Shown piece after piece: positions 10,435-51,848 of a DNA stretch of 57,335 nt. The translations under genes and the position numbers were made by a program. Every line of letters begins with the position of its first letter. Positions within the stretch are counted from its first letter, which is position 1. The notes under the pieces were generated by a model. The model saw only the letters and a list, made by a program, of their open reading frames with translations. It did no database searches and was not told the DNA's origin. The DNA comes from Candidatus Buchananbacteria bacterium RIFCSPHIGHO2_02_FULL_56_16 (lineage in GTDB: Bacteria; Patescibacteriota; Patescibacteriia; Buchananbacterales; UBA6539), in assembly GCA_001817495.1 (NCBI GenBank), contig MHIL01000023.1:1-57335 (forward strand). Direction: 5' to 3'.

Positions 10435-11202
10435 ATGTATAGTCCCGATACCAATCCCGACGTTTCTGAATTACCATTCTTTGAGCGGGGTACGCCGGGT
10501 CGGAAACGCTGGTACCACCGCTGGTGGGGCAAGCTGCTGCTGCTCGCGCTCGCCCTCGGGTTGGTCGTCGCGGTGGCGTTTGGCATCTACGTGCTGCGGG
10601 TGAGCTCCCTGATTCGCAGCGGTCAGCTCGACCCGCAGTCGTTTCTTAACCAGCCGGCGTCCGGCAGCCAGCCGGCGGCTGATCGTTCAAGTCTGGCTAC
10701 CGATGACGACCCGAGCGTGGGGCCGGCCGGCGCCGCGGTCGTTATCGTCGAGTTCAGCGACTTTGAGTGTCCGTATTGCGGCCAAGTCTACCCGGTCGTC
10801 AAGCAGCTGATTCGCGACTACGGTGACCGCGTGCGCTTCATCTACCGCGACTTCCCGCTGGTTGACACTCACCCCCGGGCGCTGCCGGCGGCGCTGGCGG
10901 CCAACTGTGCCTTTGAGCAGGGAAAATTTTGGGAGATGCACGATAAAATTTTTGAGAATCAGGCCGCCCTCGAGGAAGCTGACCTCAAGCGCTACGCCAT
11001 CCAGATTGGTTTGAACAGCGTGGCGTTCGGCGGCTGCTTGAGCTCGGGTAAGTATGTGAAAGAAATTGAAGATGACTACAACGCCGGCATCGAAGCCGGA
11101 GTCGAGGCGACGCCTACATTCTTCGTGAACGGCACACTCGTGCGCGGCGCGGTGCCCTACGAGGCGCTACAGCAGCTGATCGTCGCCGAGCTCAATCGTT
11201 AG
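10435..11202 (+). CDS. Membrane-anchored DsbA-family thiol:disulfide oxidoreductase
   Basis: It has an N-terminal TM segment and a thioredoxin fold with a CPYC active site (FSDFECPYCG). Confidence 0.8.
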   Translation: MYSPDTNPDVSELPFFERGTPGRKRWYHRWWGKLLLLALALGLVVAVAFGIYVLRVSSLIRSGQLDPQSFLNQPASGSQPAADRSSLATDDDPSVGPAGAAVVIVEFSDFECPYCGQVYPVVKQLIRDYGDRVRFIYRDFPLVDTHPRALPAALAANCAFEQGKFWEMHDKIFENQAALEEADLKRYAIQIGLNSVAFGGCLSSGKYVKEIEDDYNAGIEAGVEATPTFFVNGTLVRGAVPYEALQQLIVAELNR

Positions 11203-11211
11203 GTTCGCGCT

Positions 11212-12063
11212 ATGAATCAACCTCGTTTCTATATCCTCTTTCTCCTCCTCGTGGCGTTGTCTGCTGCTGGTCCAGCCGTTGTCTGGGCAGCCGATGGCAG
11301 CTCGGCGCCCAATCTGGCGCCGGAGCTCCAGATCAAGATTGGCGACTTTGGCCAAGCGTCCGATTTTCAGGCCGGCTATGGGGTGGGATCGTGCCCACCC
11401 GAAAAGAGCCAGTATGGGAAATGCCTGGAGGTACCCTGGATCAGCCAGTACATCGGCGCCCTCTACCGCTACGGCGTGGCTTTGGCCGCAGCCTTGGCGA
11501 TGCTGATGATCACCATTGGCGGCGCCATCTGGCTGACCGCCGGCGGCAGTTCAGAACGAGTCTCGACCGCCAAGAGCTTCATCATTTCGGCGATCTCCGG
11601 TCTCATGCTGGCGCTGTTCTCCTACGTTATTCTCTACACCGTCAACCCCCGCCTGGTGGCGCTTGAGCCGTTGAGCGTGCCGGTGGTCAGCGATGTGCCA
11701 GAACCAAAACTAAGTGAAAAAACTACCAGCCAGTACACTCAGGCTAAGTATCACTGCTTATTTAACGGCGAGTGCCTTCAATCGTCAGAGAAGCAGGAAT
11801 GCGAATCCATGGGCGGACAGTTCGTTGACGATAGTAACTACGAGGCGATGTGCGGTATAAGGGAGTCGTGCGCGTGCTACCAATATGAAGTCAATGAAGG
11901 CACTCCTTTAGGCAGGCTGTATACCTGCGGCGAGCATCCTAAAGGCGTGGATTGGTTTCTTTGCAAAGAAAAACCTTTTTCCAAAGTTCGTTGCTTTAAG
12001 CAGCCAGTACTCTGCTCTGATGTTCCTGACACGCGGAATAATATTTACTGGGGTGACCCTTAA
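11212..12063 (+). CDS. T4SS pilin-like (TrbC/VirB2-type) protein with a Cys-rich C-terminal domain
   Basis: It has a signal peptide followed by a two-TM hairpin core (YIGALYRYGVALAAALAMLMITIGGAIWLTAGGSSERVSTAKSFIISAISGLMLALFSYVILYTVNP). The core is nearly identical to that of the next gene. Confidence 0.55.
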   Translation: MNQPRFYILFLLLVALSAAGPAVVWAADGSSAPNLAPELQIKIGDFGQASDFQAGYGVGSCPPEKSQYGKCLEVPWISQYIGALYRYGVALAAALAMLMITIGGAIWLTAGGSSERVSTAKSFIISAISGLMLALFSYVILYTVNPRLVALEPLSVPVVSDVPEPKLSEKTTSQYTQAKYHCLFNGECLQSSEKQECESMGGQFVDDSNYEAMCGIRESCACYQYEVNEGTPLGRLYTCGEHPKGVDWFLCKEKPFSKVRCFKQPVLCSDVPDTRNNIYWGDP

Positions 12064-12067
12064 AACC

Positions 12068-13150
12068 ATGCAAGAAAAATTTTTACCGTTCGTGGGGGTT
12101 GTTACTGTCTTATTCTTTTTATCCCCCGTACTCGTCGGCGCTGCGGACACTCCCCAGCTGAACGTGAAGATTGGTAATACGGGTGCATCGGCGATCTTTA
12201 AGGCCGTCAGCTGCACGGGGGGGTACTGCACCATCGGCTGGATCGGTGACTACATCGGGGCGGTTTACCGCTATGGCGTAGCGTTGGCCGCCGCCCTCGC
12301 GATGCTGATGATCACCATCGGCGGCGCCGTCTGGCTGACCGCCGGCGGCAGCCCCGAGCGGGTCTCGACCGCCAAGAGCTTCATCATCTCGGCGGTGGTG
12401 GGACTGGTGATAGCGCTTTTTTCATACAACATCCTCTACACGGTAAATCCGGCGCTGACCGAGCTTAAGCCGCTGAAGATTCCGGAAGTAGAAAACATCC
12501 GCCTCGCCCAGGCCGGTGACCCGAGCACTGATGCGCTGGTCGGTAAGATTGCGTGTGAGACGTCAACTCGCACCATCTCATATGATTCCGTTGGGTTGCC
12601 GCAGCAAACCCCCGATGTACTGGCTGATGATCTGTCACCGCTGCCAACGCTCGAGGAAACAAATCTTGCGCCGTCTCGGCTGGGAGCGTTAGCGGTTCCT
12701 TCGGGCTGCCGTGATTATAATTTCGATGGCTACGGCGTGGACTCCCGAATTTTGCGGGCGATTGCCTCAACTGAATCTGGTTGTAATCCCAGTGCCCGAG
12801 GTGAAGATGGAGAATGTGGCATGATGCAGATGTTGCCAACGACTGCCGACCGCGATTGTGATTATTTACTTGATCATCCCCAAGAAAGTATTGAACTAGC
12901 CGCTAGGTATATCCAACAGAATGAGGCGTTTCATGAGGGAAACATTTCTCACATTTTGGCTGGCTATAACGGTGGTTACGGCACTACGCCGAGAAATGGT
13001 AAAAGGCCGCCCCTGGCTCCCAGTGTCGATTGTCCTGGCTTCAGAGCTTATGAGTGTTGTATTAATCCTGGTGGTTTAGAAAGCAATCAAGGTTATGTAA
13101 TTCGGGCGATGCGCTACTACCAGGGGGCGCAGGACAACCAGTACCAGTAG
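12068..13150 (+). CDS. T4SS pilin-like core fused to a lytic transglycosylase (SLT, VirB1-like) domain
   Basis: The pilin core is the same as in 11212-12063. The C-terminus carries SLT motifs (IASTESGCNP....GECGMMQM..TTA ... YNGG). I chose the ATG at 12068 to avoid the 44-nt overlap of the ORF-track start. Confidence 0.6.
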   Translation: MQEKFLPFVGVVTVLFFLSPVLVGAADTPQLNVKIGNTGASAIFKAVSCTGGYCTIGWIGDYIGAVYRYGVALAAALAMLMITIGGAVWLTAGGSPERVSTAKSFIISAVVGLVIALFSYNILYTVNPALTELKPLKIPEVENIRLAQAGDPSTDALVGKIACETSTRTISYDSVGLPQQTPDVLADDLSPLPTLEETNLAPSRLGALAVPSGCRDYNFDGYGVDSRILRAIASTESGCNPSARGEDGECGMMQMLPTTADRDCDYLLDHPQESIELAARYIQQNEAFHEGNISHILAGYNGGYGTTPRNGKRPPLAPSVDCPGFRAYECCINPGGLESNQGYVIRAMRYYQGAQDNQYQ

Positions 13151-13197
13151 GTTTTTAAAACCCTGTTTTCAAATGTCATTACAGAGTTAGCAAGTTT

Positions 13198-13261
13198 GTA
13201 GTCAGTAGTCTGTAGTCGGTAGTAAATTGTTAATCCTCTACTGACTACTTACTATAGACTA
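13198..13261. repeat. Intergenic hairpin, word family 1
   Basis: gtagtcagtag (13198-13208) pairs with ctactgactac (13238-13248). Confidence 0.65.
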
Positions 13262-13292
13262 AAAGCTGCAAGCTTTCCATTACTACTTACAT

Positions 13293-13316
13293 CCCGATGC
13301 ACCCCATCGGGTTTTA
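13293..13316 (+). terminator. Rho-independent terminator after the pilin operon
   Basis: The hairpin cccgatg-caccc-catcggg is followed by TTTT. Confidence 0.6.
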
Positions 13317-13326
13317 TCATGTGTGC

Positions 13327-13355
13327 TTGACGGTTTGCCGCAAGCAGTGTATCAT
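13327..13355 (+). promoter_or_regulatory. Candidate sigma70-type promoter for uvrA
   Basis: TTGACG (13327-13332) is separated by 17 nt from TATCAT (13350-13355). Confidence 0.4.
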
Positions 13356-13372
13356 GTATCCGTTTACAACTG

Positions 13373-22363: not shown

Positions 22364-23218
22364 TTGAAAAAAATGGCCCAATCAGCCAAAAAATCAACCA
22401 ACTTAACTATCCTGTCTGATATCTACCAAGAGCAAGAGACCGGATCATCGGCGAACCGCGGCGAGCGGTACCCAGTCAGCGAAAAAATTAAGGCGTATTT
22501 TAACGCCCCCCAAACGGTGGAAAAGTGGTTAGCGGGGGCGGTTTTATTTTTCGGCGCCGCTGGCATCATCTTTGGTTTTAACCACTTTAAAAGTTTGATT
22601 GCCAAACCCTTCGACCGTCCGCTGCCCGAAAGCAACACCAGCTTCGCCGCCGCGACCAACCCTGTTGATCAAGACCTGCTTGGCTTACGCCAGAAAGACA
22701 CGGACCAGGACGGCCTCTCGGACTACGACGAGCTCTACGTCTACCAGACCAGCCCCTTTCTCGAGGATTCAGATTCGGATGGTATAGAGGATCAGAAAGA
22801 AATTGCCAGTAATAGCAACCCCAACTGTCCGAAGGGCGCTGATTGCACCGGCGCCGCGGCCGAACGTACCGTGGCTGAAAATACCGCGCCAGCCGCGGCC
22901 GACCTGGACGCCGGCTCGCTTCGGACATTGCTGCAAAACGCCGGCGTATCAGCTGATGTGCTGAACGCCATCAGCGATGAGGAGCTGCTGCGCACCTACC
23001 TCGAGGTAACCGGCGGTACGGTCGCGAGCTCCACCGCCACCACGGCGGGGCCGGCCCAGCCGGCGGGCAGCTCATCGGCCGCTGACCAGATTAGTCAGCT
23101 TACCCCGGCCCAGCTGCGGCAGCTGCTGCAAGAGCAGGGGATTCCGCCGGAAACGTTGCGTCAAGTGAGCGACGAGGAGCTTCTTAAGCTGGTTTCAGAG
23201 ACGCTTCAGGGTTACTAA
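22364..23218 (+). CDS. Membrane-anchored protein with thrombospondin-type-3 Ca-binding repeats and a duplicated C-terminal helical motif
   Basis: It has a TM segment and DTDQDGLSDYDE...DSDSDGIEDQKE repeats. The motif LR.LLQ..G......L..(I/V)SDEELL occurs twice. The start is TTG at 22364 or ATG at 22373, and the gene ends 6 nt before the giant gene. Confidence 0.6.
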   Translation: MKKMAQSAKKSTNLTILSDIYQEQETGSSANRGERYPVSEKIKAYFNAPQTVEKWLAGAVLFFGAAGIIFGFNHFKSLIAKPFDRPLPESNTSFAAATNPVDQDLLGLRQKDTDQDGLSDYDELYVYQTSPFLEDSDSDGIEDQKEIASNSNPNCPKGADCTGAAAERTVAENTAPAAADLDAGSLRTLLQNAGVSADVLNAISDEELLRTYLEVTGGTVASSTATTAGPAQPAGSSSAADQISQLTPAQLRQLLQEQGIPPETLRQVSDEELLKLVSETLQGY

Positions 23219-33678: not shown

Positions 33679-36600
33679 ATGAAAACGTGGAGGAACATCC
33701 TGAATCGGCGAACGGTCCTGACGGCGCTGTGTCTTTTCGCGCTTGCCGTTACCGTTTTTACCGTTGCCGTATCCGCGCCACTCGTATTGGCTCAAGAAGA
33801 GCCGCCCCGCCCAACGAGCGACTACGAGCAAGACGATCTTGGGCCGTTAGAGGCCGGGTCCTCCGGCGCTTTCAATACACGGCCAACACCTGTCAAAAAG
33901 GCCGAGGCAGAAGAATCAAATGTCTTTCTCTCAACCTTCGTAAATCTACTGGTCGGAGGATTGGCCAGGATCGTCATCTGGCTCGAGGGGTTTGTCATAA
34001 CTGCTCTGATCGCGATCTTGCTCCTCGTGGTTAAGTATAACAGCTTCGCGACCGCTGGGGCGGTCAGCAACGGCTGGACCTTGGTCCGTGACGTTGCCAA
34101 CCTGTTCTTCGTGGTCGTGCTGCTGGGTATCGCGCTGGCCACGATCCTGCGGGTTGAATCCTACAACTTCAAGAAGCTGCTGCCCAAGCTGATCCTGATG
34201 GCGATTCTGGTCAACTTCAGCAAGGTCATCGCCGGCCTGATCATTGACTTCGCCCAGGTGGTGATGCTCACCTTCGTCGCCGCCTTCGCCGGCGTTTCCG
34301 GCGCCGGCAACATGGTAACTACCCTGCAGATCCAGTCAATTATTACCTACAACTGGTCCAACGCCGCGGAGGCGAGCGCGGCAAACTTCACGGGTACGGC
34401 GCTGCTGATGGCGATCATGCTGCTGATTACCATTGGGGTCCTGCTGGTGATGCTCGTCGTGCTGGTGATGCGCATCGTGATGCTCTGGGTGCTGGTGGTG
34501 CTCTCGCCGCTGGCCTACATCATGGCCGCGTTTCCCCAGGGGCAGCGCTACGCCCAGCAGTGGTGGCAGGAGTTCACCAAGTACGTGATTGTCGGCCCGG
34601 TGCTCGGATTCTTCCTCTGGCTGACCTTCGCCGTCGCCAGCGCCGGGGACATTGCCCAAAAAGAGTTTGGCAGCCAGAAAGGCTTAGCCGCTGCCGGCGC
34701 CGGTGACGCGTTGAGCGCGAAGCTTGCCAAGCAGGCCGGAGTTCAAACGAAAATCGGCCAAACCGACCATCTGCTGTCGTTTATCATCGCCATTGCCATG
34801 CTGATGGGGTCCTTGGTCATTACCCAGCAGATCGGCGTGGCCGGCAGCCAGTTCGCGGGGTCGATGTTTAATAAGATTCGCCAAACCGGGCTCAAGGCGC
34901 TCCTGGCGCCGGGCAGGGCGGTGGGCTGGACCGCGAAGACCGCGGCCAAGGCGCCGTTTCAATTTGTCGGCCGCAAGGTCAATGAGGCAATCGGTGAAGG
35001 CAAATTGCCGGCCTGGGCGAGTCCGGCCGGGATGGTTCGCGGGTGGGGTGCACGGCGGGCAGAATTGTATGATGTATCAAAACGTAAAGCTGCCGCTGCT
35101 GGCCATGAAAAATGGGAACAGCTTTTTACCGGAACATCGTTGCCTCGGGTATCACAAATTGAATTAGCGGAAGAATCTAAGTTCGCTAAAGATTTTGCGG
35201 ACGTATACGATAAAGAACAAATGGCAGCAGAGTGGGTTGGATTAAGGAACGCGCCGCAATCGGCGGAAATTAGGGCTAAAAAAAGAGGCTTGATCAAGGC
35301 TGGCGGCGTAGCGGGTTTTTTGGATGATATAATGGCTCATCCGGAAACGAAAGCACATACTCGCAATTACATCAAGAATTTGTATAAAACGACCAAGGAT
35401 GATCAACTAAAAGCGGCTATGGATGAAAAGGATGAGAAAACCGGCTTAAGTCTAATGGATAATGTAAACGATGATAAGGGTGCATGGTACAACTGGCAAA
35501 CACTCCATTTCTTTTTGCAAGAGTCTCTCGGGAGCGATCAGGCCGGGATGACGACGATGCAAACCCTTGAAGATATTGGCAAAAAAAATGGTCATCCAGA
35601 ATACGGTGGCCATGATACCTATCGATCATCACTCGAAGGCGGCCACGACGAGATGGAAATGGAAAGGATTTATGATCAAAAAGACGCTGCCGGTAAAATT
35701 ATTAGAAAATCTGGTCAAAAACGCATGCAGACTGAACTTTCTAAAATGCAGGGTCGCAGCAGGCTTGGTTTAGCGCCGCATGCATTTATGGCAATGAATA
35801 ATGATGGTACCTACGCTATGGGAATGCCAGAGCGGTTGGCGGCGACAGCTATGTTCGGCGCCCAGGGCGCAAGAATTTTTGAGCACTCTCAAAAGCGAGA
35901 TTGGACCATGGCTATGGGTGGCAGCCCAGATGAAGTGAACTGGGTCGAAGGTCAGGAAACAGAAGTTGCGAATTTTGATAAACCAGATGCATCACTGCGA
36001 AACATAATCAACCACGCCAAAGGTTTTGCTTTTCTTATGCAAAGTGCTGCTAATCCACGAGAGCCAGTCGACGTAATTGTTAAAACGGCGTGGAAAACAA
36101 CTGGTGGAAAAGGTGAGCCCCAGTTTCAGGTTAATGGAAAGGTCTATGGCGCTGATGAATTCTTAAGCGAGTTTGGAGAACAGGCACACGCAACGCCGTC
36201 GCCCGCGCCTACGCCTGGTTCAGCCCCAGCGCCCGGCCCCAGCGCCCCGATGGCTGATATTGACATCGCTAAGCACGAGCGAACCAAGCAGGCGATTGAC
36301 GCCTTTAGCGCTCAAACTGGTTTATCAGCGGCTGATTTTTACCAGTCTCGGTCGTACAAGGCTGATCAGTATACTGCCCAAGGAGATTTTGAGCGTAACG
36401 AGCAGCTGATGGGTGGCTGGCGGCAAGAAATTGGCCGTATCAGGCCGGACGTTGATCAGGCTAACCCCGAGGCGGTCGAGCAGGCGATTCGTGAAGAGCA
36501 GGGTAAAGTTCGGGGTGTGAAGTCGGCTAGCGGCAAAGGTGAAGGTGAGCAGGCCGGCGTTGGGCTTGACTTCTCCGATAAAGACGTCCAGCGCATCTTT

Positions 36601-38430
36601 GGCGTCAATCAGTCACAAGCAGGTGCCTACTACAAACAAGGCGATCTAACCAAGGCACAAAAGACTTTCCTCGGGGATAAATATCATACGCAGTTGTTAA
36701 ATGAAGGGGTTGATGAAAAAACGGCGGTAGAGAGGTGGGCGGCTTTCGACGAGACATTGGACAAGGTTGGTTCCCTCCGGATGACCAATAATAGCGGCTA
36801 TGCCTCACGCCTTGAAACCGGCCGTCATGAACGGGCCCACCCGGAAATTGAGAAGCTTGCTCCAGCCCAGATTGATGAAATCTACAATTCAATTGAGAGC
36901 GACCGCCGACTCCAGATGGAAGCTGAAGTCAAGGCTCGGTGGGGTAACATTAGTCCGCTGGATGCCAAGAAAGAAATTCTGACCCAGGGTTTGGCCAGCT
37001 ACGGCCGTTCAGATGCCCGCGAACCGTTGCAGCTCACTGACGCGGCGGCTCGAGCCATGGCGGCAACCGGTGCCGTTAAGATGAGCAACGCGGCGAAGCA
37101 GCGGCTCGATCAGGCGTACCCTGAGGCTGCCGTGACCAAGGGAGAACTCAAGACGATTGATAAGCAGCGTGCCGCAACGGCCAAAGCCCAGGCGCGTGAC
37201 GCTAAGGCCGCGGCTCAAGCCGAACGCCAAACCGTTAAGGAACGGCAGCGGCAGCTGCAGCAGCGCGAGGCACAAAACGCGCCGGTATACACCCAGGCGA
37301 TCAGCGCTTTGAGTACGCTCAATCCCAGCCAGCTCGGCCAGCTGTGGGGTAAGCTGTCAGCGGCTCAGCAGTCGGCGCTAACGGAGGAGGTACGAGAATC
37401 CTACCCGGCAGCCGCCCGCTCTGTTCCTGTTGGCGATTACAACTTGCAGCTGGCGGCGTTGAGCCGGGCGCTGGCGCGAACGAATCTCGAACCGGCGGCG
37501 AAAGATAGTTTGCATCTCGACGCAACCGTCGTCGAGGCGATAAAGAGCCAGGGAATCGATACGGCATCAGTCGGTACTAAAAATGAGCTTTACCGTCAGG
37601 CGCAGCAAACTCAGGGTACCTACCAGCAGCGCCGCACCGAGTATGAGCAGCTAGCGGCTCGGAAGGCTAACTACGGTGATGCGATGCGGCAGAAACAGGC
37701 GGAAAACAACGCCGAGGTTAAGCAGCGGAATGAAGCGGCCCGCACCGCCGCCAGCCGTGGCGATATGCCAGCCGCCGCAGAGGCAAGAAAGATGGCTGAA
37801 TTCTTACAAAAAGAGAACGCTCGCATTGACCAAGATGTGGCCAAAAAAGGCAAAGAATTTGACGTTGATATTAATAAAGCAAAGTCAAAAATGCAAGCCG
37901 CGTTGGATCAGGTTATGGATTTGGAAACTCGGCGTCGACCCGAACCATCAGTACCGCAAGCCGTCCACCAAGCCTTCTCAACCGTTGCTCACCCGGTCAA
38001 TGAACAAGCCCGCCAGCAGGCGCAGCAGGTTATTGCGCAGGCGCCACCGGCCGAGGTTGTTGCGGCAGCGCAGGAAGCAGTAGATAAAGAAGGTGAAGAG
38101 CTGAAGCGGGCGACAGGCAGTGCTGATAACGGGGCAATCCTTGCGGTATTGACGAGTATTGAGAGTATTTTGGAGGGGGTGAAATCATCACTTGACAAAT
38201 TATCTGGAGACAAGGTTAATAGCGCTGAGCGGTCGCACTTTGATGACCTCATGCGTCAAGTCAGTTTGAGCCGAGGATCGATGGCCGCCGGTGGTCAGCT
38301 CGACCCAGGATCGGTGGCTGGGCTGCTTCGTGATGTCAACAATAATTTAAAGAGCATCTATCGCAAGACTGGTCAAAAAACGGGCAGCATGCCGACGGAA
38401 ATACCACCCAAGACTTCAGGTGAGGAATAA
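33679..38430 (+). CDS. 1583-aa polytopic membrane protein (VirB6/TrbL-like N-terminal region) with a long Ala/Gln/Lys-rich helical C-terminal extension
   Basis: It has a signal peptide and about 6-8 TM segments in aa ~90-400. About 1150 aa of soluble, coiled-coil-like sequence follows. The functional call comes from topology and context only. Confidence 0.45.
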   Translation: MKTWRNILNRRTVLTALCLFALAVTVFTVAVSAPLVLAQEEPPRPTSDYEQDDLGPLEAGSSGAFNTRPTPVKKAEAEESNVFLSTFVNLLVGGLARIVIWLEGFVITALIAILLLVVKYNSFATAGAVSNGWTLVRDVANLFFVVVLLGIALATILRVESYNFKKLLPKLILMAILVNFSKVIAGLIIDFAQVVMLTFVAAFAGVSGAGNMVTTLQIQSIITYNWSNAAEASAANFTGTALLMAIMLLITIGVLLVMLVVLVMRIVMLWVLVVLSPLAYIMAAFPQGQRYAQQWWQEFTKYVIVGPVLGFFLWLTFAVASAGDIAQKEFGSQKGLAAAGAGDALSAKLAKQAGVQTKIGQTDHLLSFIIAIAMLMGSLVITQQIGVAGSQFAGSMFNKIRQTGLKALLAPGRAVGWTAKTAAKAPFQFVGRKVNEAIGEGKLPAWASPAGMVRGWGARRAELYDVSKRKAAAAGHEKWEQLFTGTSLPRVSQIELAEESKFAKDFADVYDKEQMAAEWVGLRNAPQSAEIRAKKRGLIKAGGVAGFLDDIMAHPETKAHTRNYIKNLYKTTKDDQLKAAMDEKDEKTGLSLMDNVNDDKGAWYNWQTLHFFLQESLGSDQAGMTTMQTLEDIGKKNGHPEYGGHDTYRSSLEGGHDEMEMERIYDQKDAAGKIIRKSGQKRMQTELSKMQGRSRLGLAPHAFMAMNNDGTYAMGMPERLAATAMFGAQGARIFEHSQKRDWTMAMGGSPDEVNWVEGQETEVANFDKPDASLRNIINHAKGFAFLMQSAANPREPVDVIVKTAWKTTGGKGEPQFQVNGKVYGADEFLSEFGEQAHATPSPAPTPGSAPAPGPSAPMADIDIAKHERTKQAIDAFSAQTGLSAADFYQSRSYKADQYTAQGDFERNEQLMGGWRQEIGRIRPDVDQANPEAVEQAIREEQGKVRGVKSASGKGEGEQAGVGLDFSDKDVQRIFGVNQSQAGAYYKQGDLTKAQKTFLGDKYHTQLLNEGVDEKTAVERWAAFDETLDKVGSLRMTNNSGYASRLETGRHERAHPEIEKLAPAQIDEIYNSIESDRRLQMEAEVKARWGNISPLDAKKEILTQGLASYGRSDAREPLQLTDAAARAMAATGAVKMSNAAKQRLDQAYPEAAVTKGELKTIDKQRAATAKAQARDAKAAAQAERQTVKERQRQLQQREAQNAPVYTQAISALSTLNPSQLGQLWGKLSAAQQSALTEEVRESYPAAARSVPVGDYNLQLAALSRALARTNLEPAAKDSLHLDATVVEAIKSQGIDTASVGTKNELYRQAQQTQGTYQQRRTEYEQLAARKANYGDAMRQKQAENNAEVKQRNEAARTAASRGDMPAAAEARKMAEFLQKENARIDQDVAKKGKEFDVDINKAKSKMQAALDQVMDLETRRRPEPSVPQAVHQAFSTVAHPVNEQARQQAQQVIAQAPPAEVVAAAQEAVDKEGEELKRATGSADNGAILAVLTSIESILEGVKSSLDKLSGDKVNSAERSHFDDLMRQVSLSRGSMAAGGQLDPGSVAGLLRDVNNNLKSIYRKTGQKTGSMPTEIPPKTSGEE

Positions 38431-43094: not shown

Positions 43095-43562
43095 ATGCAG
43101 CAATTCGTCGTCCCCCAATTCATTGACGTTGAAGATAAAATCATCGGTCCGATCACCGTTCGGCAATTTTTGATTTTGCTGGCCGGCGCCGGGGTGTCCT
43201 TTGTCGCCTACAAGCTCTCCGACCTCACCCTCTTTGTCTTTGAGTTCGCGGTCATCTCGCTCATCTTCTTCACCTTCGCGTTCATCAAAATTAACGGCAA
43301 GCCGATTCACTATCTCTTCCTTAACCTCATTCAAACTTCTCGTCGCGCCCGCTTGCGGGTGTGGAAGAAAAAAGTTTTTCATAAGGCCGAGCTGCATAAG
43401 TTGAGTAAAGAAAAAAAAGCCGAGCTGCCGGTGGTGGTTATCGCCAAAAATAAGGTCAAGGCTTCGCGGCTGGCCGAGCTGTCGCTGATCGTTGACACGG
43501 GCGGCATCTACCAGGGCGAGGCGCTCCCGCTGGCTAAGGGCGGCAAGGAGCAGCTGTTATGA
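43095..43562 (+). CDS. PrgI-family (VirB3-like) small T4SS membrane protein
   Basis: It has the N-terminal VPQFIDVEDKIIGPITVRQF motif followed by two TM helices. Its stop overlaps the next start (ATGA). Confidence 0.65.
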   Translation: MQQFVVPQFIDVEDKIIGPITVRQFLILLAGAGVSFVAYKLSDLTLFVFEFAVISLIFFTFAFIKINGKPIHYLFLNLIQTSRRARLRVWKKKVFHKAELHKLSKEKKAELPVVVIAKNKVKASRLAELSLIVDTGGIYQGEALPLAKGGKEQLL

Positions 43563-44236
43563 AATCAAAAAAGTTAGCCGGTAAAAAAGTTCAGGCCTCC
43601 ACCCAGCAGTACCTCGACATCGCGGAGATTAAAGAGGACACGGTGGTGCTCAAAGACGGAACGCTGCGGTCGGTCATCTTGGTCTCGAGCATTAACTTCG
43701 CCCTCAAATCGGAAGACGAACAGAACGCGATTATCGCCGCTTACATCAGCTTTTTGAACTCGCTCGATTTTCCGCTCCAAATTTCTATCCAGTCGCGGGT
43801 GCTGGACGTTGACGGCTACCTCGACCGGCTCAAGAAGCTGGAGAAAGAGCAGACCAATGAGCTGCTCCGCATCCAGACGACCGAGTACCGCCAGTATGTC
43901 TCTGAACTCGTCAAGCTCGGCGACATCATGACCAAGCGGTTCTACGTAGTCGTGCCGTACGATCCGGTTTCCGACAAGCAAAAGTCGTGGCGGAACCGGT
44001 TCACGGAAGTTTTCAGCGCCGCCAGCGACCTTAAGCTGAACCAGGAGCAGTTCCTCAAGCGCCGGCGCGCGCTGTCGCAGCGGGTTGAGCACATCCTTAG
44101 CTACCTGGCGAGCATGAGCCTTAAGGCAGTGGTGCTCGACACCCAGAGCCTGATTGAGCTCTACTACAACACCTACAACCCCGGGCTGTACAAGCGGGAG
44201 AAGCTGGTTGAGGTTAATAAAATTCAAGTTGAGTAG
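43559..44236 (+). CDS. VirB4/TrsE-type N-terminal domain encoded as a separate ORF
   Basis: The STQQYLDIAEIKEDTVVLKDG.LRSV..VSSINF.LKSEDEQ..II..Y..FLNSLDFP.QI pattern resembles the N-terminus of Gram-positive-type VirB4 ATPases. It ends 2 nt before the ATPase ORF, in another frame. Confidence 0.5.
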   Translation: MKSKKLAGKKVQASTQQYLDIAEIKEDTVVLKDGTLRSVILVSSINFALKSEDEQNAIIAAYISFLNSLDFPLQISIQSRVLDVDGYLDRLKKLEKEQTNELLRIQTTEYRQYVSELVKLGDIMTKRFYVVVPYDPVSDKQKSWRNRFTEVFSAASDLKLNQEQFLKRRRALSQRVEHILSYLASMSLKAVVLDTQSLIELYYNTYNPGLYKREKLVEVNKIQVE

Positions 44237-44238
44237 CC

Positions 44239-46158
44239 ATGGCGATTACCCCGCGGACAATCAAAGAGCAAGAGCAGCGCCGCTTGTTGCCGCCCGAGGC
44301 GGCAGTCGCGCCGGCCGAGCAGCGCGAGCGCGAGGCGGGAGCGGCGGCGGCGGAAAAATCAGTCATCGAGGAGGAACGAATCTTCCGCGAGGGCGTGGTT
44401 TCGATCAAAGACCTGATCAGCCCGGCCGCGATGGAGGTCAACCCGCGCTTCATTAAGCTCGGCGAGCGGTTCGCGAGCACGCTGTTCGTCATCAGCTATC
44501 CGCGCTACATCTCGATCGGCTGGTTCGCGCCGATCATCAACCTAAGCGTGGCGCTGGACATCTCGATGTTTTTTTATCCGGTGAAATCCCACATCATCTT
44601 AAAGCAGCTGCGGAAGAAAGCCGGCGCGCTGGAAGCCCAGCTGCTCTCGGACCGGGAGAAGGGCGCGCCGCGCGATCCGGTGCGTGAGACGGCGCTGCGC
44701 GATATTGAGAAGCTGCGCGACGACCTCACCCAGGGTACCGAGCACTTTTTTCAGTTCGGCCTGTACGTCACCGTCTACGCCGACACCAAAGAAGAGCTCG
44801 GCCGGCTGACCGAAGACATTGAGTCACTCTTCGGCTCGCGCCTCGTGTACTCCAAGAAGGTGCTCTACCAGGCGGAGCAGGGATTTAACTCCACCCTGCC
44901 GATGGGCAACGATGAGCTGATGATTGGGTTTAACATGAACTCATCGCCGATCGCCGCTTCATTTCCGTTTATTTCCTCCGAACTAACCTCCGACGACGGC
45001 GTGCTCTACGGCATCAACCGGCACAATAACAGTCTGATCCTCTTCGACCGGTTCTCCCTCCAGAACGCCAACACGGTGGTGTTCGCCACCTCCGGCGCCG
45101 GCAAGAGCTACGCGATCAAGCTCGAGGTGCTCCGGAGCATGATGCTGGGCACCGACGTGCTGGTGATTGACCCGGAGCGCGAGTACAAGCACCTCGCCGA
45201 CGCGGTCGGCGGGACCTACATCAACATTTCGTTGAGTTCAGAGAGCAAGATTAACCCCTTCGACCTGCCGCGGCCTATCGGCGAGCAGCGGACATCTGAT
45301 ATCATCCGGGCGTCGGTCATCACGCTCAAGGGTCTGCTGCGTCTGATGCTGGGCAGCCTCACCCACCAGGAGGACTCGATCATTGACCGGGCGCTCCTGG
45401 AAACGTACGCCAAGAAAGACATTACCTCGGAGTCCGATCTCGCCAAGATCGAACCGCCGATCATGCAGGACTTGCAAGACGTGCTCGAGGGTATGGAGGG
45501 CGCGGCTGATTTGGCGCTGCGCCTTAAGAAGTACACCCAGGGGACGTTCTCCGGCCTGTTCAACAGCCCGACCAACGTTGACGTTAATAACCAGCTCGTG
45601 GTCTTTTCGGTCCGCGACCTCGAGGATGAGCTGCGGCCAATCGCCATCTACACGATTGTCACCTACATCTGGAACGTGGTGCGCTCGAAGCTGAAGAAAC
45701 GCCTCCTGATTATTGACGAAGCCTGGTGGCTGATGCAGAATGAAGATTCGGCCAAGTTCATCTACGCGCTGGTCAAGCGCTGCCGCAAGTACTACCTCGG
45801 CGTGACCAACATTACCCAGGACGTCAATGACTTTCTGCTTTCGCCCTACGGCCACGCCATCGTCAATAACTCGGCGCTCCAGCTCTTGATGCGCCAGTCG
45901 CCGGCGGCGATCGACCTCGTCCAGCAAACCTTTTTGCTGACCGAGGGTGAGAAGTACCTCCTCCTCGAGTGCGGGGTGGGCGAGGGGATTTTTTTCGCCG
46001 GCGAGAAGCACGCCGCGATTAAAGTCGTCGCCTCCTATTCGGAAGACCAGCTGATCACGTCTGATCCGCGCCAGCTCCTGGAAATTGAAGAGGCCAAGCG
46101 GGAGTTTGAGCAGCAGCTGCCAAACCAAGAGCCCGCGGCTGAACCAGCCGCTCCCTAG
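44239..46158 (+). CDS. VirB4-like T4SS ATPase
   Basis: It has Walker A (FATSGAGKSY) and Walker B (RLLIIDEAWWLM). It also has the upstream ISP....V.....KLG.....TLF...YPRY...GW pattern typical of VirB4/TraE. Confidence 0.8.
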   Translation: MAITPRTIKEQEQRRLLPPEAAVAPAEQREREAGAAAAEKSVIEEERIFREGVVSIKDLISPAAMEVNPRFIKLGERFASTLFVISYPRYISIGWFAPIINLSVALDISMFFYPVKSHIILKQLRKKAGALEAQLLSDREKGAPRDPVRETALRDIEKLRDDLTQGTEHFFQFGLYVTVYADTKEELGRLTEDIESLFGSRLVYSKKVLYQAEQGFNSTLPMGNDELMIGFNMNSSPIAASFPFISSELTSDDGVLYGINRHNNSLILFDRFSLQNANTVVFATSGAGKSYAIKLEVLRSMMLGTDVLVIDPEREYKHLADAVGGTYINISLSSESKINPFDLPRPIGEQRTSDIIRASVITLKGLLRLMLGSLTHQEDSIIDRALLETYAKKDITSESDLAKIEPPIMQDLQDVLEGMEGAADLALRLKKYTQGTFSGLFNSPTNVDVNNQLVVFSVRDLEDELRPIAIYTIVTYIWNVVRSKLKKRLLIIDEAWWLMQNEDSAKFIYALVKRCRKYYLGVTNITQDVNDFLLSPYGHAIVNNSALQLLMRQSPAAIDLVQQTFLLTEGEKYLLLECGVGEGIFFAGEKHAAIKVVASYSEDQLITSDPRQLLEIEEAKREFEQQLPNQEPAAEPAAP

Positions 46159-50987: not shown

Positions 50988-51848
50988 TCAGCTTATCTCT
51001 ACCTTCGTTCCCACCTGAGCAAACTGGTACAGCCGCTCCATGTTCGGGTAGGCGACGTTGACGCAGCCATGGCTCATCGGCCGGCCGAAATTATTATGCC
51101 AGTAGGCGCCGTGGATGTAGTAGCGCAGGCGCTTCGTTGTGAAGTGGAGGTTCCACTTGGTGTTGGGGTAGTAAAAATCGTAGCCGGTCCCGCCATAGAC
51201 TTTGGTTGGCACTTTGTCGAGGATGCTAAACTCGCCGGTCGGCGTTGGCATTGACCGGACGCCGGTCGAAACGGCGAAGCGATCAAGCAGAACGCCGTTA
51301 AACGAGTAGGCGAGCTCCTGGCCGGCGAGGCTGACGGTAATGAACTTCTCAATCGTCCCCGCGTCAGCCGAGCGCGGGTCATGGCCCTGGTCAATCTCAT
51401 CGCCATCGCTAAACCCGTCGCCGTCGGTATCGGGGTTGAGAAGATCCAAACCTAATCGAATCTCCCAGCTGTCGGCCGCGCCGTCGGCGTCTGAATCAAT
51501 CGCGTTGAGTTTGGTCGGTTCAGCGTGGCGGGGAGAGTAGCCGTGGTAGACTTCCTGGAAGTCGTCAAACCCGTCGCCGTCGGTGTCGGCCTTGAGCGGA
51601 TCGGTGTGGTACAGCGTTAGCTCTACTTGATCATTAAATCCGTCGCCGTCAGTATCGGCAATTGGTTCGGCTTCGCTCAGGGTCGCCTTGGGTACTGTCG
51701 AACTGGCAATTGGTTCGGCGGCTGACGCCTGGAAACCGAAGGCAACAAAAAAGAGCGCGAGCGACGCGCCGAAGAGTTTAAAAAAGATGTTTTTTTTGAA
51801 ACTAGCTTTTTTCATTTTTGTTTTAATTTGTTTTAAGCCGGGCTGCAC
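50988..51848 (-). CDS. L,D-transpeptidase (YkuD domain) with N-terminal thrombospondin-type-3 Ca-binding repeats
   Basis: It has a signal peptide and four D-x-D-x-DG-x-x-D repeats. The catalytic motif is HG......G...SHGCVN. Confidence 0.85.
   Translation of the reverse strand: MQPGLKQIKTKMKKASFKKNIFFKLFGASLALFFVAFGFQASAAEPIASSTVPKATLSEAEPIADTDGDGFNDQVELTLYHTDPLKADTDGDGFDDFQEVYHGYSPRHAEPTKLNAIDSDADGAADSWEIRLGLDLLNPDTDGDGFSDGDEIDQGHDPRSADAGTIEKFITVSLAGQELAYSFNGVLLDRFAVSTGVRSMPTPTGEFSILDKVPTKVYGGTGYDFYYPNTKWNLHFTTKRLRYYIHGAYWHNNFGRPMSHGCVNVAYPNMERLYQFAQVGTKVEIS

What the first reader, a model, noticed from the sequence alone, without database searches (positions are those of the whole stretch)
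11212..13150. Tandem T4SS-pilin-like paralogues with a near-identical core and divergent AT-rich tails, one fused to a lytic transglycosylase
Nucleotides ~11449-11590 and ~12251-12392 encode an almost identical two-helix core (YRYGVALAAALAMLMITIGGA.WLTAGGS.ERVSTAKSFIISA) with high nucleotide identity. The downstream halves are unrelated and AT-richer. The first is a Cys-rich domain, and the second carries SLT motifs (ESG...GMMQ...YNGG). A VirB2-like pilin covalently joined to a VirB1-like muramidase is an unusual fusion. The conserved core next to variable tails suggests gene conversion in the core and diversification or module swapping in the exposed parts. The operon starts with a DsbA, consistent with disulfide-dependent folding of the pilin tail and the giant protein.
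Basis: partly seen in the sequence, partly recalled or inferred. Interest (0 to 1): 0.65.

Follow-up and report, generated by a model that had tools for sequence, protein, structure and literature searches.

The report
Pilin-like pair, one fused to muramidase
Two neighbouring genes of a Patescibacteria-type bacterium encode secretion-system pilin-like membrane hairpins kept nearly identical by gene conversion, one carrying a cysteine-rich outer domain and the other a cell-wall-cutting enzyme; this fusion is real, widespread, not described in the papers I searched, and may supply the wall-opening enzyme that their type IV secretion system seems to lack.

Summary
Genes 11212-12063 and 12068-13150 each encode a signal peptide, a short disulfide loop and a two-helix membrane hairpin of Pfam family PF18895 (T4SS_pilin). 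Their outer tails are unrelated: one has 10 cysteines, the other is a family-1 SLT lytic transglycosylase with its catalytic Glu and the GMMQ and AGYNGG motifs.

The fusion is not an artefact. 95 of 169 relatives in hand have hairpin then SLT in that order. In Moranbacteria-type loci it is the last gene of the PrgI–VirB4 T4SS operon.

The unit DsbA–pilin–pilin-SLT recurs in five further lineages. In every lineage that carries two or more copies, the hairpins cluster by genome rather than by orthology. In the window a ~144-nt tract has dS 0.5, while flanks that keep the same amino acids are saturated. This points to gene conversion.

The tails are mosaic: GC3 is 45-53% against ~77% for the genome, and their synonymous divergence from a close relative is saturated.

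Homology to canonical VirB2 could not be shown with my tests, and whether a filament forms is unknown. I read the hairpin as a shared T4SS assembly or anchoring module that displays swappable tails, with the SLT tail acting as the VirB1 equivalent. This is a new variant of the known Patescibacteria pilin arrays.

The parts
10435..11202 (+). Membrane-anchored DsbA-like thiol:disulfide oxidoreductase (N-terminal TM helix, CPYC motif); first gene of the unit
   Evidence: Pfam Thioredoxin_4 3e-30 and DSBA 2e-21. Hydrophobic segment at residues 29-62. Lies 9 nt upstream of gene 1. A DsbA gene precedes the pilin gene(s) in L001, L003 and L005, and sits upstream with POR genes between in L004, L006, L009 and L010.
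11212..12063 (+). Gene 1: PF18895 pilin-like protein with a Cys-rich tail. Signal peptide 11212-11289; disulfide-loop ectodomain 11290-11433; hairpin 11434-11658; tail 11659-12060.
   Evidence: PF18895 at 23 bits. AF2 helices at residues 75-109 and 114-144 with pLDDT >90. 10 Cys in the tail. Orthologue P0010 in L003 keeps all 10 tail Cys at 40% tail identity.
12068..13150 (+). Gene 2: PF18895 pilin-like hairpin fused to an SLT lytic transglycosylase. Signal peptide 12068-12142; hairpin 12236-12460; low-confidence linker 12461-12703; SLT 12704-13138.
   Evidence: PF18895 at 27.0 bits and SLT at 61.5 bits. AF2 gives SLT pLDDT ~90 and linker <50. Foldseek top hits are Slt, MltE and MltC. 95 relatives have the same order of domains.
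11449..11592 (+). Homogenised (gene-converted) tract, copy in gene 1: helix 1, the predicted cytoplasmic loop and the start of helix 2
   Evidence: 87.5% nt identity to 12251-12394. dS is 0.50 here against 3.4 (5' flank) and 2.4 (3' flank). 30 of 42 identical-residue codons use the same codon, against 17.8 expected, P=8e-5.
12251..12394 (+). Homogenised tract, copy in gene 2
   Evidence: Same evidence as for the gene-1 copy. The orthology signal present upstream disappears from this point on in the window/L003 quartet.
11644..11655 (+). NPxL motif (NPRL) closing helix 2, at the junction between the constant hairpin and the variable tail. The gene-2 equivalent, NPAL, is at 12446-12457.
   Evidence: N145, P146 and L148 are invariant in 22 sequences. 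NPxL is present in 169 of 191 hairpins. Identity between window and L003 gene 1 drops soon after this point.
12773..12775 (+). Codon of the catalytic Glu (E236 of the 360-aa form) in the TESG motif
   Evidence: Invariant in alignment A1. Aligned with the ES motif of MltC and EtgA.
13028..13075 (+). Family-specific Cys-rich insert in the SLT domain (DCPGFRAYECCINPGG)
   Evidence: C322, E329, C330, C331, P334 and G335 are invariant in A1. This peptide was the pattern that retrieved the Falkowbacteria locus.
13293..13311 (+). Terminator-like hairpin plus T-run that ends the DsbA–gene 1–gene 2 unit. A promoter-like site for uvrA follows at 13327-13355.
   Evidence: Consensus scan only.
33679..38430 (+). 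VirB6/TrbL-like giant membrane protein, part of the candidate partner T4SS elsewhere in the window
   Evidence: Weak Pfam TrbL hit, 8.7e-4, below the cutoff.
43095..46158 (+). T4SS core genes: PrgI/VirB3-like 43095-43562; a 225-aa gene at 43559-44236 in the position of TraC-like; VirB4-like ATPase 44239-46158
   Evidence: PrgI 2e-9; P-loop_TraG 2e-28, AAA_10 and DUF87. The same gene order is seen in L002, L007 and L008, where it ends with the pilin-SLT gene. The TraC-like call in the window rests on position only.

Best explanation
The locus is a three-gene unit of a Patescibacteria-type chromosome: a membrane DsbA followed by two members of the Patescibacteria T4SS_pilin (PF18895) family.

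Shown:
- Each pilin-like protein has a Sec-type signal peptide, a short loop with two Cys, and a two-helix hairpin joined by a short basic loop (TAGGS-ERVSTAK).
- The hairpin ends in an invariant NPxL motif and is followed by a C-terminal tail.
- One tail is a 10-Cys module. The other is a family-1 lytic transglycosylase with an intact active site.
- The fusion is conserved across several lineages and sits at the end of the T4SS operon in some of them.
- About 144 nt of the hairpin have been homogenised between the two paralogues.
- The tails have a different composition and a deeper divergence than the rest of the genes.

Inferred:
- Both termini face outwards, so the tails are extracytoplasmic and DsbA oxidises their cysteines.
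- The hairpin is the common module through which both proteins are recognised by, and assembled at, the same T4SS (PrgI/VirB3, VirB4 and VirB6-like, encoded 20-33 kb downstream).
- The assembled form is either subunits of a mixed pilus-like polymer or membrane-anchored satellites of the channel.
- Conversion keeps that interface identical so that different tails remain compatible with one machine.
- The SLT tail does the VirB1 job. It cuts MurNAc-GlcNAc bonds next to the apparatus to let it cross the cell's own wall, and possibly the wall of the host cell the bacterium attaches to.
- The Cys-rich tail is a fast-evolving surface or adhesion module exchanged by recombination at the conserved hairpin.
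For: - Domain calls: PF18895 and SLT; 22/22 and 69/71 relatives hit PF18895.
- Structure: AF2 hairpin pLDDT >90 and SLT ~90; Foldseek and PDB profile hits to Slt, MltE, MltC and EtgA with the catalytic Glu aligned.
- Fusion conserved: 95 of 169 proteins, always hairpin before SLT. Named examples come from Ca. Falkowbacteria and Ca. Moranbacteria.
- T4SS link: in L002, L007 and L008 the fusion is the last gene of PrgI–TraC-like–VirB4–…, and it is the only hairpin gene in those 21-kb loci. The window itself has PrgI, VirB4 and VirB6-like genes.
- DsbA synteny in 8 loci.
- Conversion: dS 0.50 in the core against >2.4 in both flanks. Same-codon excess P=8e-5, while the flanks are at the codon-usage expectation. 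Hairpins are sister within the window group, L005, L006 and L004, and nearly identical in L009. The orthology signal is present in the flanks and erased in the core.
- Mosaic tails: GC3 is 45-53% against ~77%. Between window and L003 gene 1, dS is 0.6-0.8 in the N-terminal part but saturated in the tail.
- Other relatives carry SLT_3, 3D, NlpC/P60, Amidase_2, VanY/M15 or CHAP tails, so wall hydrolases on this hairpin are a recurring theme.
- Literature: VirB2-like pilin arrays are widespread in Patescibacteria and essential in S. epibionticum. Most genomes with VirB2-like genes lack a recognised VirB1 (PMC12102498, PMC10633639, PMC12857230).
Against: - In the window and in the ABY1-type loci, the pair is not next to T4SS genes. 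It sits beside DsbA and housekeeping or POR genes.
- Homology of the hairpin to canonical VirB2/TrbC is not demonstrable here. There is no PF04956 hit and no pilin among PDB sequence hits. hhalign against a VirB2 profile gives only 9.8% probability. The best solved-pilin fold match has E=1.5.
- Gene 1 alone is below the Pfam cutoff.
- No filament, enzymatic activity, topology or disulfide has been observed.
- A 17-kDa domain on each subunit may be hard to fit in a VirB2-type filament.
- Clustering of hairpins by genome could in part reflect repeated duplication.
Confidence: 0.6

Rival explanations
1. The hairpin is only a generic two-helix membrane anchor or export carrier. Both proteins are ordinary envelope enzymes or adhesins that remodel the cell's own wall, work with DsbA, and have no functional tie to the T4SS and no polymerisation.
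For: The pair is 20-33 kb from the window's T4SS genes and sits in a housekeeping neighbourhood. In ABY1-type loci it lies inside the POR operon. VirB2 homology is unproven. Many relatives carry assorted wall hydrolases.
Against: The fusion is the terminal gene of the T4SS operon in L002, L007 and L008. In the literature, PF18895 genes lie near virB4 in 1135 of 1948 assemblies (PMC12102498). A generic anchor would not need an invariant NPxL and a conserved loop, nor conversion-maintained identity between paralogues. Proteins with 2-4 tandem hairpin units suggest that hairpins pack against each other.
Confidence: 0.22
2. The near-identical cores reflect independent recent duplications of the hairpin in each lineage, followed by capture of new tails, rather than gene conversion between old paralogues.
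For: Hairpins cluster by genome. Non-SLT tails are not recognisably homologous between distant genomes.
Against: Within the window, the sequence on both sides of the 144-nt tract is homologous between the paralogues but saturated at synonymous sites: dS is 3.4 and 2.4 against 0.5 in the tract. This is the pattern of a conversion tract inside an old duplication. Gene-1 and gene-2 flanks show clear orthology between window and L003 (51 orthology-type nt sites against 4) and partly between L005 and L006. The DsbA–pilin–pilin-SLT order is shared across lineages that are 40% identical.
Confidence: 0.1
3. Core identity is due only to strong purifying selection on the protein, or on an RNA element, without recombination.
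For: The core peptide is identical in the window, L001 and L003.
Against: Helix 2 (ALFSY.ILYTVNP) is equally conserved in protein, yet only 5 of 15 of its codons are identical, which is at the codon-usage expectation. The core has 30 of 42 identical codons.
Confidence: 0.05
4. The fusion is an artefact (missed stop, chimeric assembly) or a phage holin–endolysin cassette.
For: L001, a 2-kb contig at 1.2x coverage, looks like the gene-1 N-terminus joined to an SLT tail and could be a chimeric assembly.
Against: The frame is open from 12068 to 13150. The same architecture occurs in 95 proteins from many samples and in long contigs. PHROGs matches only the SLT domain and no holin family. There are no phage genes nearby.
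Confidence: 0.02

Closest known systems
VirB2-like pilin arrays of Patescibacteria T4SS (PF18895; Wang et al. 2023 PMC10633639; Quiñonero-Coronel et al. 2025 PMC12102498)
   Same: Same Pfam family. Tandem paralogues in a chromosomal, monoderm-type T4SS background (PrgI, VirB4, VirB6-like) with no relaxase seen in the window.
   Different: Published arrays are described as highly divergent, with mean identity 25% and a maximum of 54%. I found no mention of enzymatic tails. Here the hairpins are 83-96% identical within a genome through concerted evolution, and each carries a 130-230-aa tail, one of them an SLT. The pair is linked to DsbA rather than to virB4.
T4SS cell-wall hydrolases: VirB1 (Agrobacterium), and PrgK, TraG of pIP501 and CwlT of monoderm conjugation systems
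   Same: An SLT-type lytic transglycosylase associated with a T4SS. As in the monoderm enzymes, it is membrane-tethered by an N-terminal hydrophobic segment. In Moranbacteria-type loci it is encoded in the T4SS operon.
   Different: The tether is a pilin-family hairpin behind a cleavable signal peptide, not a single TM helix. There is no second CHAP or NlpC/P60 domain in this protein. The SLT domain has a family-specific Cys-rich insert (DCPG..AYECCINPGG).
FlgJ (flagellar rod cap fused to a muramidase) and the EscI–EtgA pairing in T3SS
   Same: A structural or assembly module of a trans-envelope machine is physically coupled to a peptidoglycan-cleaving domain, so that the wall is opened only where the machine grows. 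EtgA is among the best sequence matches in the PDB.
   Different: These are different machines with unrelated structural modules. The comparison is an analogy of logic, not homology.
Variable pilin systems: Bartonella and Anaplasma VirB2 paralogue arrays, Neisseria pilE/pilS gene conversion, R64 PilV shufflon
   Same: A constant assembly part combined with variable exposed parts, and recombination between repeated copies.
   Different: Here conversion homogenises the constant part instead of diversifying the variable part. No silent cassettes and no invertible segment were found: a 17-nt inverted repeat exists, but the simulated inversion yields no ORF.

Membership tests
Pfam PF18895 T4SS_pilin (Patescibacteria/monoderm VirB2-like pilins) | Score at or above the curated gathering threshold (26.6 bits) | tested here: met
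   Gene 2 scores 27.0 bits, just above the threshold. Gene 1 scores 23.0 bits, below it. All 22 members of the family alignment hit the model, best E 1.8e-10, as do 69 of 71 non-SLT relatives, best E 9.8e-28. Gene 1 is therefore a member by transitivity, not on its own score.
Pfam PF18895 T4SS_pilin (Patescibacteria/monoderm VirB2-like pilins) | Signal peptide followed by a two-helix hydrophobic hairpin with a short polar loop | tested here: met
   AF2 helices at residues 75-109 and 114-144 (gene 1, pLDDT >90) and at 57-91 and 96-126 (gene 2). Hydropathy segments agree. The N-termini have AXA-type sites, VWA|AD and VGA|AD, read from the sequence.
Pfam PF18895 T4SS_pilin (Patescibacteria/monoderm VirB2-like pilins) | Encoded with T4SS genes (virB4 neighbourhood) | tested here: inconclusive
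   The window has PrgI and VirB4 31-33 kb downstream and a VirB6-like gene 20 kb downstream, with housekeeping genes between. Relatives L002, L007 and L008 have the fusion inside the T4SS operon. ABY1-type loci do not.
Canonical VirB2/TrbC conjugative pilins (PF04956) | Sequence or profile similarity to VirB2/TrbC | tested here: not met
   No PF04956 hit at E<=1. A hairpin profile finds no pilin in PDB sequences at E<=10. hhalign against a 120-sequence VirB2 profile gives 9.8% probability, although the two helices align in register.
Canonical VirB2/TrbC conjugative pilins (PF04956) | Fold match to solved conjugative pilins | tested here: inconclusive
   No Foldseek hit at E<=0.001. The best pilin match is 8dfu, the Aeropyrum pernix conjugation pilus, with E=1.5, TM(target) 0.60 and 30% identity over 71 columns. 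It sits among generic helical hairpins such as ATP synthase subunit c.
Canonical VirB2/TrbC conjugative pilins (PF04956) | Small mature protein (about 70-120 aa) that polymerises into an extracellular filament | not testable with these tools
   Sizes are 283 and 360 aa, with 130-230-aa tails. Filament formation needs microscopy or biochemistry.
Family-1 lytic transglycosylases (Pfam SLT PF01464; VirB1-like) | Domain score above the threshold and a goose-lysozyme-like fold | tested here: met
   61.5 bits against a cutoff of 21.3. The PDB profile hits MltC, EtgA, Slt70 and MltE. AF2 pLDDT is ~90 and Foldseek has probability 1.00 for Slt and MltE.
Family-1 lytic transglycosylases (Pfam SLT PF01464; VirB1-like) | Catalytic Glu in the E-S motif, plus the G-L/M-M-Q and A-Y-N-x-G motifs | tested here: met
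   E236-S237, G251-M-M-Q254 and A298-G-Y-N-G-G303 are present. E236, G251, M253, Q254, G299, Y300, N301 and G303 are invariant in 8 fusion proteins that are 32-63% identical. The Glu aligns with the ES motif of MltC and EtgA.
Family-1 lytic transglycosylases (Pfam SLT PF01464; VirB1-like) | Peptidoglycan-cleaving activity that serves T4SS assembly | not testable with these tools
   The only evidence is operon position in relatives.
DsbA-like thiol:disulfide oxidoreductases | Thioredoxin fold with a CxxC motif, exported or membrane-anchored | tested here: met
   Thioredoxin_4 at 105.8 bits and DSBA at 77.4 bits. The CPYC motif is read from the sequence. One N-terminal hydrophobic segment is present.
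Shufflon or invertible pilin-tail switch | Inverted repeats at the constant/variable junction whose inversion creates alternative ORFs, with a recombinase nearby | tested here: not met
   A 17-nt perfect inverted repeat exists (11440-11456 and 12612-12628; 0 of 300 shuffles reach 17). The simulated inversion gives no ORF, the repeat is absent in relatives, and no recombinase gene was found among the ORFs I scanned around the pair and the T4SS genes.

The most novel reading that the evidence does not exclude
The hairpins are true T4SS pilins that co-polymerise into a mixed filament. Its surface is studded with enzymatic (SLT and other wall hydrolases) and Cys-rich adhesin domains, an 'armed pilus' with which an epibiotic Patescibacterium opens its own wall and drills the host's. 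Gene conversion keeps the polymerisation interface identical among paralogues. The invariant hairpin also acts as a recombination handle for swapping tail cassettes between strains, which tunes host range. The proteins with 2-4 tandem pilin units ending in SLT would then be pre-assembled filament segments or polyprotein precursors.
Probability: 0.2. Interest if true: 0.85.

Novelty: new variant of a known kind. Interest (0 to 1): 0.6.

Why it matters
Patescibacteria make up a large share of bacterial diversity. In the one genetically tractable species, the T4SS and its pilin array are essential for life on the host, yet what the 'pilins' do is unknown. A 2025 survey concluded that most genomes with VirB2-like genes lack a VirB1.

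A conserved pilin–SLT fusion changes that picture. It lies at the end of the T4SS operon in some lineages, and it belongs to a wider set of pilin-like hairpins carrying other wall hydrolases. The wall-opening enzyme may therefore be built onto the pilin module itself.

The fusion also gives concrete handles for experiments: a catalytic Glu to mutate, a hairpin to tag, and tails to swap. These can address whether the proteins form a filament, anchor enzymes at the channel, or attack the host wall.

The conversion-plus-mosaic pattern is also a clean natural example of a constant assembly module with exchangeable exposed modules.

Tried and rejected
- A homologue search with the gene-1 tail alone found nothing. 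Local BLAST found only the L003 orthologue at 40%. The tail fold stayed at low confidence (pLDDT 48-78), so I did not classify it.
- VirB2 homology was tested in three ways: a hairpin profile against PDB sequences, hhalign against single VirB2 and against a 120-sequence VirB2 profile, and Foldseek against the PDB. All were non-significant.
- The shufflon or inversion idea prompted by the 17-nt inverted repeat was rejected.
- The holin–endolysin idea was rejected: there is no holin PHROG and no phage context.
- A search for extra hairpin copies in the window found none beyond the two.
- The genome-contig scan used a narrow peptide pattern and returned only one locus. The taxonomic breadth therefore comes mainly from the exhaustive protein search and two source names.
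- I did not determine the taxon of the window directly. Patescibacteria is inferred from gene content and from the named relatives of this gene pair.
- dN/dS for the tails could not be computed because synonymous sites are saturated.
Full report
1. WHAT IS THERE

Three closely spaced genes lie on the + strand:
- 10435-11202, 255 aa.
- 11212-12063, 283 aa ("gene 1").
- 12068-13150, 360 aa ("gene 2"). An alternative ATG at 12020 would overlap gene 1.

The gaps between them are 9 and 4 nt. A terminator-like hairpin with a T-run follows at 13293-13311. A promoter-like site for the next gene, uvrA, is at 13327-13355 (consensus matches only).

Pfam calls the first gene a DsbA/Thioredoxin_4 protein. 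Both following genes hit PF18895 T4SS_pilin, at 23.0 and 27.0 bits against a cutoff of 26.6. The C-terminal half of gene 2 is an SLT lytic transglycosylase at 61.5 bits.

The two pilin-like proteins are 51% identical over their first 171 residues and unrelated afterwards. The DNA repeat is 248 nt at 77%. The window holds only these two copies.

2. ANATOMY

Each protein begins with a signal-peptide-like N-terminus (VWA|AD and VGA|AD), followed by a short segment with two Cys.

AlphaFold then predicts two long helices. In gene 1 they span residues 75-109 and 114-144, with pLDDT >90 when 22 sequences are used. In gene 2 they span 57-91 and 96-126. They are joined by TAGGS(S/P)ERVSTAK. Hydropathy agrees.

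Helix 2 ends in NPxL, which is invariant in the alignment and present in 169 of 191 hairpins examined.

The gene-1 tail has 10 Cys in 133 residues.

Gene 2 has an ~80-residue low-confidence linker and then the SLT domain (pLDDT ~90):
- Its best structural matches are Slt, MltE and MltC.
- Its best PDB sequence matches are MltC, the T3SS enzyme EtgA and Slt70, with the catalytic Glu aligned.
- E236, GMMQ and AGYNGG are invariant across eight fusion proteins that are 32-63% identical.
- A family-specific Cys-rich insert, DCPG..AYECCINPGG, is invariant as well.

3. THE FUSION IS REAL AND COMMON

A word-indexed search found seven further hairpin-SLT proteins down to 31% identity. An exhaustive profile search of 1.84 billion representatives gave 1052 hits below 1e-30.

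Of the 169 proteins in hand, 95 carry both modules, always with the hairpin first and with linkers of 31-166 residues.

Source names include 'transglycosylase SLT domain-containing protein [Candidatus Moranbacteria bacterium]'. One locus is from Ca. Falkowbacteria. The pilin part is not reflected in any source name I saw.

Among 71 close non-SLT relatives, 69 hit PF18895. Several carry other wall hydrolases: SLT_3 ×5, 3D ×4, NlpC/P60 ×4, and one each of Amidase_2, VanY, Peptidase_M15 and CHAP. Most of the others have Cys-rich tails.

4. GENOMIC CONTEXT

I saw two kinds of context.

(a) DsbA-linked loci.
- In the window, L003 and L005, DsbA is followed directly by the pilin pair; L003 is cut inside its second gene. 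L001 has DsbA followed by one hybrid gene (see section 6).
- In L004, L006 (Falkowbacteria), L009 and L010, DsbA lies upstream and the pilin genes sit inside the pyruvate:ferredoxin oxidoreductase operon.

(b) T4SS-operon loci. In L002, L007 and L008 the fusion is the last gene of an operon: PrgI/VirB3 – TraC-like – VirB4 – 154 aa – Rce1-like protease – ~850 aa – pilin-SLT. It is the only hairpin gene in 21 kb.

The window itself encodes the following:
- A 3302-aa Cys-rich protein.
- A 1583-aa protein with a weak VirB6/TrbL match.
- PrgI.
- A gene in the TraC-like position.
- A VirB4 ATPase at 43095-46158.

These are separated from the pilin pair by uvrA, leuS, femAB, sua5 and ksgA. Its 137 Cys would still make it a plausible DsbA client in trans.

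5. CONCERTED EVOLUTION OF THE HAIRPIN

Within the window, synonymous divergence between the paralogues varies sharply along the alignment:

| Segment | dS |
|---|---|
| 5' flank | 3.4 |
| 48-codon core | 0.50 |
| 3' flank | 2.4 |

The 3' flank (ALFSY.ILYTVNP) is conserved in protein.

I then restricted the count to codons for identical residues:
- Core: 30 of 42 are the same codon, against 17.8 expected from the window's codon usage (Monte Carlo P=8e-5).
- Outside the core: 16 of 39, against 16.7 expected.
- Core against helix 2: Fisher P=0.011.

Across genomes, hairpin protein identity within a genome is far higher than between genomes:

| Comparison | Hairpin identity |
|---|---|
| Window, gene 1 vs gene 2 | 83-87% |
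| L005, within genome | 71-74% |
| L006, within genome | 70% |
| L004, three paralogues | 91-96% |
| Between genomes | 36-64% |

The L009 pair is again nearly identical in helix 1, the loop and most of helix 2.

In a neighbour-joining tree the hairpins group by genome, whereas the SLT domains behave as orthologues.

In the window/L003 quartet the upstream region carries 51 orthology-type nucleotide sites against 4 of the concerted type. From YIGA onwards that signal disappears. The paralogue dS in the core (0.50) is about the same as the orthologue dS of the hairpin between window and L003 (0.57). The last homogenisation is therefore roughly as old as that strain split.

The L005/L006 quartet shows a patchy mix: 8 concerted-type against 3 orthology-type amino-acid sites. 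This evidence is weaker.

6. MOSAIC TAILS

GC3 differs sharply between segments:

| Segment | GC3 |
|---|---|
| Housekeeping genes | 75-83% |
| Both hairpins | 85% |
| Gene-1 tail | 53% |
| Gene-2 SLT | 45% |
| L001 SLT | 76% |

Between the window and L003, gene 1 has dS 0.84 in the signal peptide and ectodomain and 0.57 in the hairpin. Its tail is saturated (pS 0.85) at 40% protein identity, with all 10 Cys kept.

L001 joins a gene-1-type head, 98% identical in DNA to the window, to an SLT tail only 67-78% identical. The switch falls inside the homogenised tract. That is what unequal recombination between the two cores would produce. However, the contig is 2 kb at 1.2x coverage, so it could be an assembly chimera.

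Together these results support exchange of tails at the conserved hairpin.

7. IS IT A PILIN?

Membership of PF18895 is sound at the family level.

Homology with canonical VirB2 is not shown by my tests:
- There is no PF04956 hit.
- No pilin appears among PDB sequence matches.
- hhalign against a verified VirB2 family profile gives 9.8% probability, although the helices align in register.
- The best solved-pilin fold match, the Aeropyrum pernix conjugation pilus 8dfu, has E=1.5.

The 'VirB2-like' label therefore rests on the Pfam name and on published structure-based annotation (PMC10633639, PMC12102498, PMC12857230).

Fourteen relatives contain 2-4 complete pilin units in one polypeptide, several ending in SLT. 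This suggests that hairpins pack side by side. It does not distinguish a filament from a membrane bundle.

8. MOST LIKELY MECHANISM

- DsbA oxidises the exported Cys-rich parts (inferred from synteny and Cys content).
- The hairpin is the shared module by which both proteins are handled by one T4SS (inferred from family, operon position in relatives, and conversion-maintained identity of helix 1 plus the loop).
- The SLT tail provides the local wall-cutting function that VirB1, PrgK or CwlT provide elsewhere. The active site is shown; the role is inferred.
- The Cys-rich tail is a rapidly exchanged surface module (inferred).
- I put about 0.6 on this overall reading. Within it, I put about 0.2 on the stronger version, in which the proteins co-polymerise into a decorated pilus.

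9. NOVELTY

Tandem VirB2-like pilin arrays in Patescibacteria are known (PMC10633639, PMC12102498).

Three things did not appear in the papers I searched:
- The fusion to SLT and other wall hydrolases.
- The DsbA linkage.
- The concerted evolution of the hairpin with mosaic tails.

Five full-text searches found no description. The 2025 survey states that most genomes with VirB2-like genes lack VirB1. I rate this a new variant of a known kind, of moderate to high interest to T4SS and Patescibacteria specialists.

Noticed in passing
window 11440-11456 and 12612-12628: A 17-nt perfect inverted repeat. One arm encodes ISQYIG at the start of the gene-1 hairpin and the other lies in the gene-2 linker. 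None of 300 shuffles reaches 17 nt. It is not conserved in relatives, and a simulated inversion gives no ORF. Its origin and any role are unexplained.
   Followed up: yes
proteins P0038, P0046, P0065, P0081, P0093 and nine others: Relatives with 2-4 complete pilin units in a single polypeptide. Each unit has the pre-hairpin LEMPL-type motif, the hairpin and NPxL. Several end in an SLT domain. They could be polyprotein precursors or pre-linked bundles. One is misnamed 'succinate dehydrogenase hydrophobic anchor subunit' by its source.
   Followed up: partly
window 11644-11655 and 12446-12457; family-wide: An invariant NPxL motif sits exactly at the junction of helix 2 and the variable tail (169 of 191 hairpins). 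An Asn-Pro bond at a constant/variable junction raises the possibility of processing, by analogy with N|PTH autocleavage in FlhB/YscU. This comparison is from memory and untested.
   Followed up: no
L002 6586-7260; L007 and L008 6820-7497: An Rce1-like (CPBP) intramembrane protease gene sits inside the T4SS operon, two genes upstream of the pilin-SLT gene. It is a candidate pilin-processing enzyme. No equivalent was seen next to VirB4 in the window.
   Followed up: no
L004 4203-7654; L006 5015-6840; L009 5569-7308; L010 7296-9035: In ABY1-type genomes the pilin genes are inserted within the pyruvate:ferredoxin oxidoreductase operon, between porA and the TPP-binding subunit, downstream of DsbA. 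L006 also has GIY-YIG-like small ORFs interspersed.
   Followed up: partly
L001 677-1819 (contig ERZ5996431 NODE_67627): A single gene combines the gene-1 head (98% nt identity to the window) with a divergent SLT tail that has native GC3. The switch falls inside the homogenised core. Its DsbA is truncated to 141 aa, and only its last ~100 nt resemble the window. It is either a natural unequal-recombination product or a low-coverage chimera.
   Followed up: partly
window 23225-33133 and 33679-38430: A 3302-aa protein with no Pfam hit and 137 Cys (4.15%) is followed by a 1583-aa protein with only a weak VirB6/TrbL match and a single Cys. They lie upstream of PrgI and VirB4, with metK in between.
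   Followed up: partly
window 13151-13372: An AT-rich (36-43% GC) intergenic region after gene 2 holds a 16-nt imperfect inverted repeat (13193-13208 and 13238-13253) built of GTAGTC-like short repeats. It lies ahead of the terminator-like hairpin.
   Followed up: no
window 22364-23218 and 50988-51848: Two proteins with bacterial TSP3 repeats. The second is fused to a YkuD L,D-transpeptidase domain. These are further envelope-remodelling genes flanking the T4SS region.
   Followed up: no
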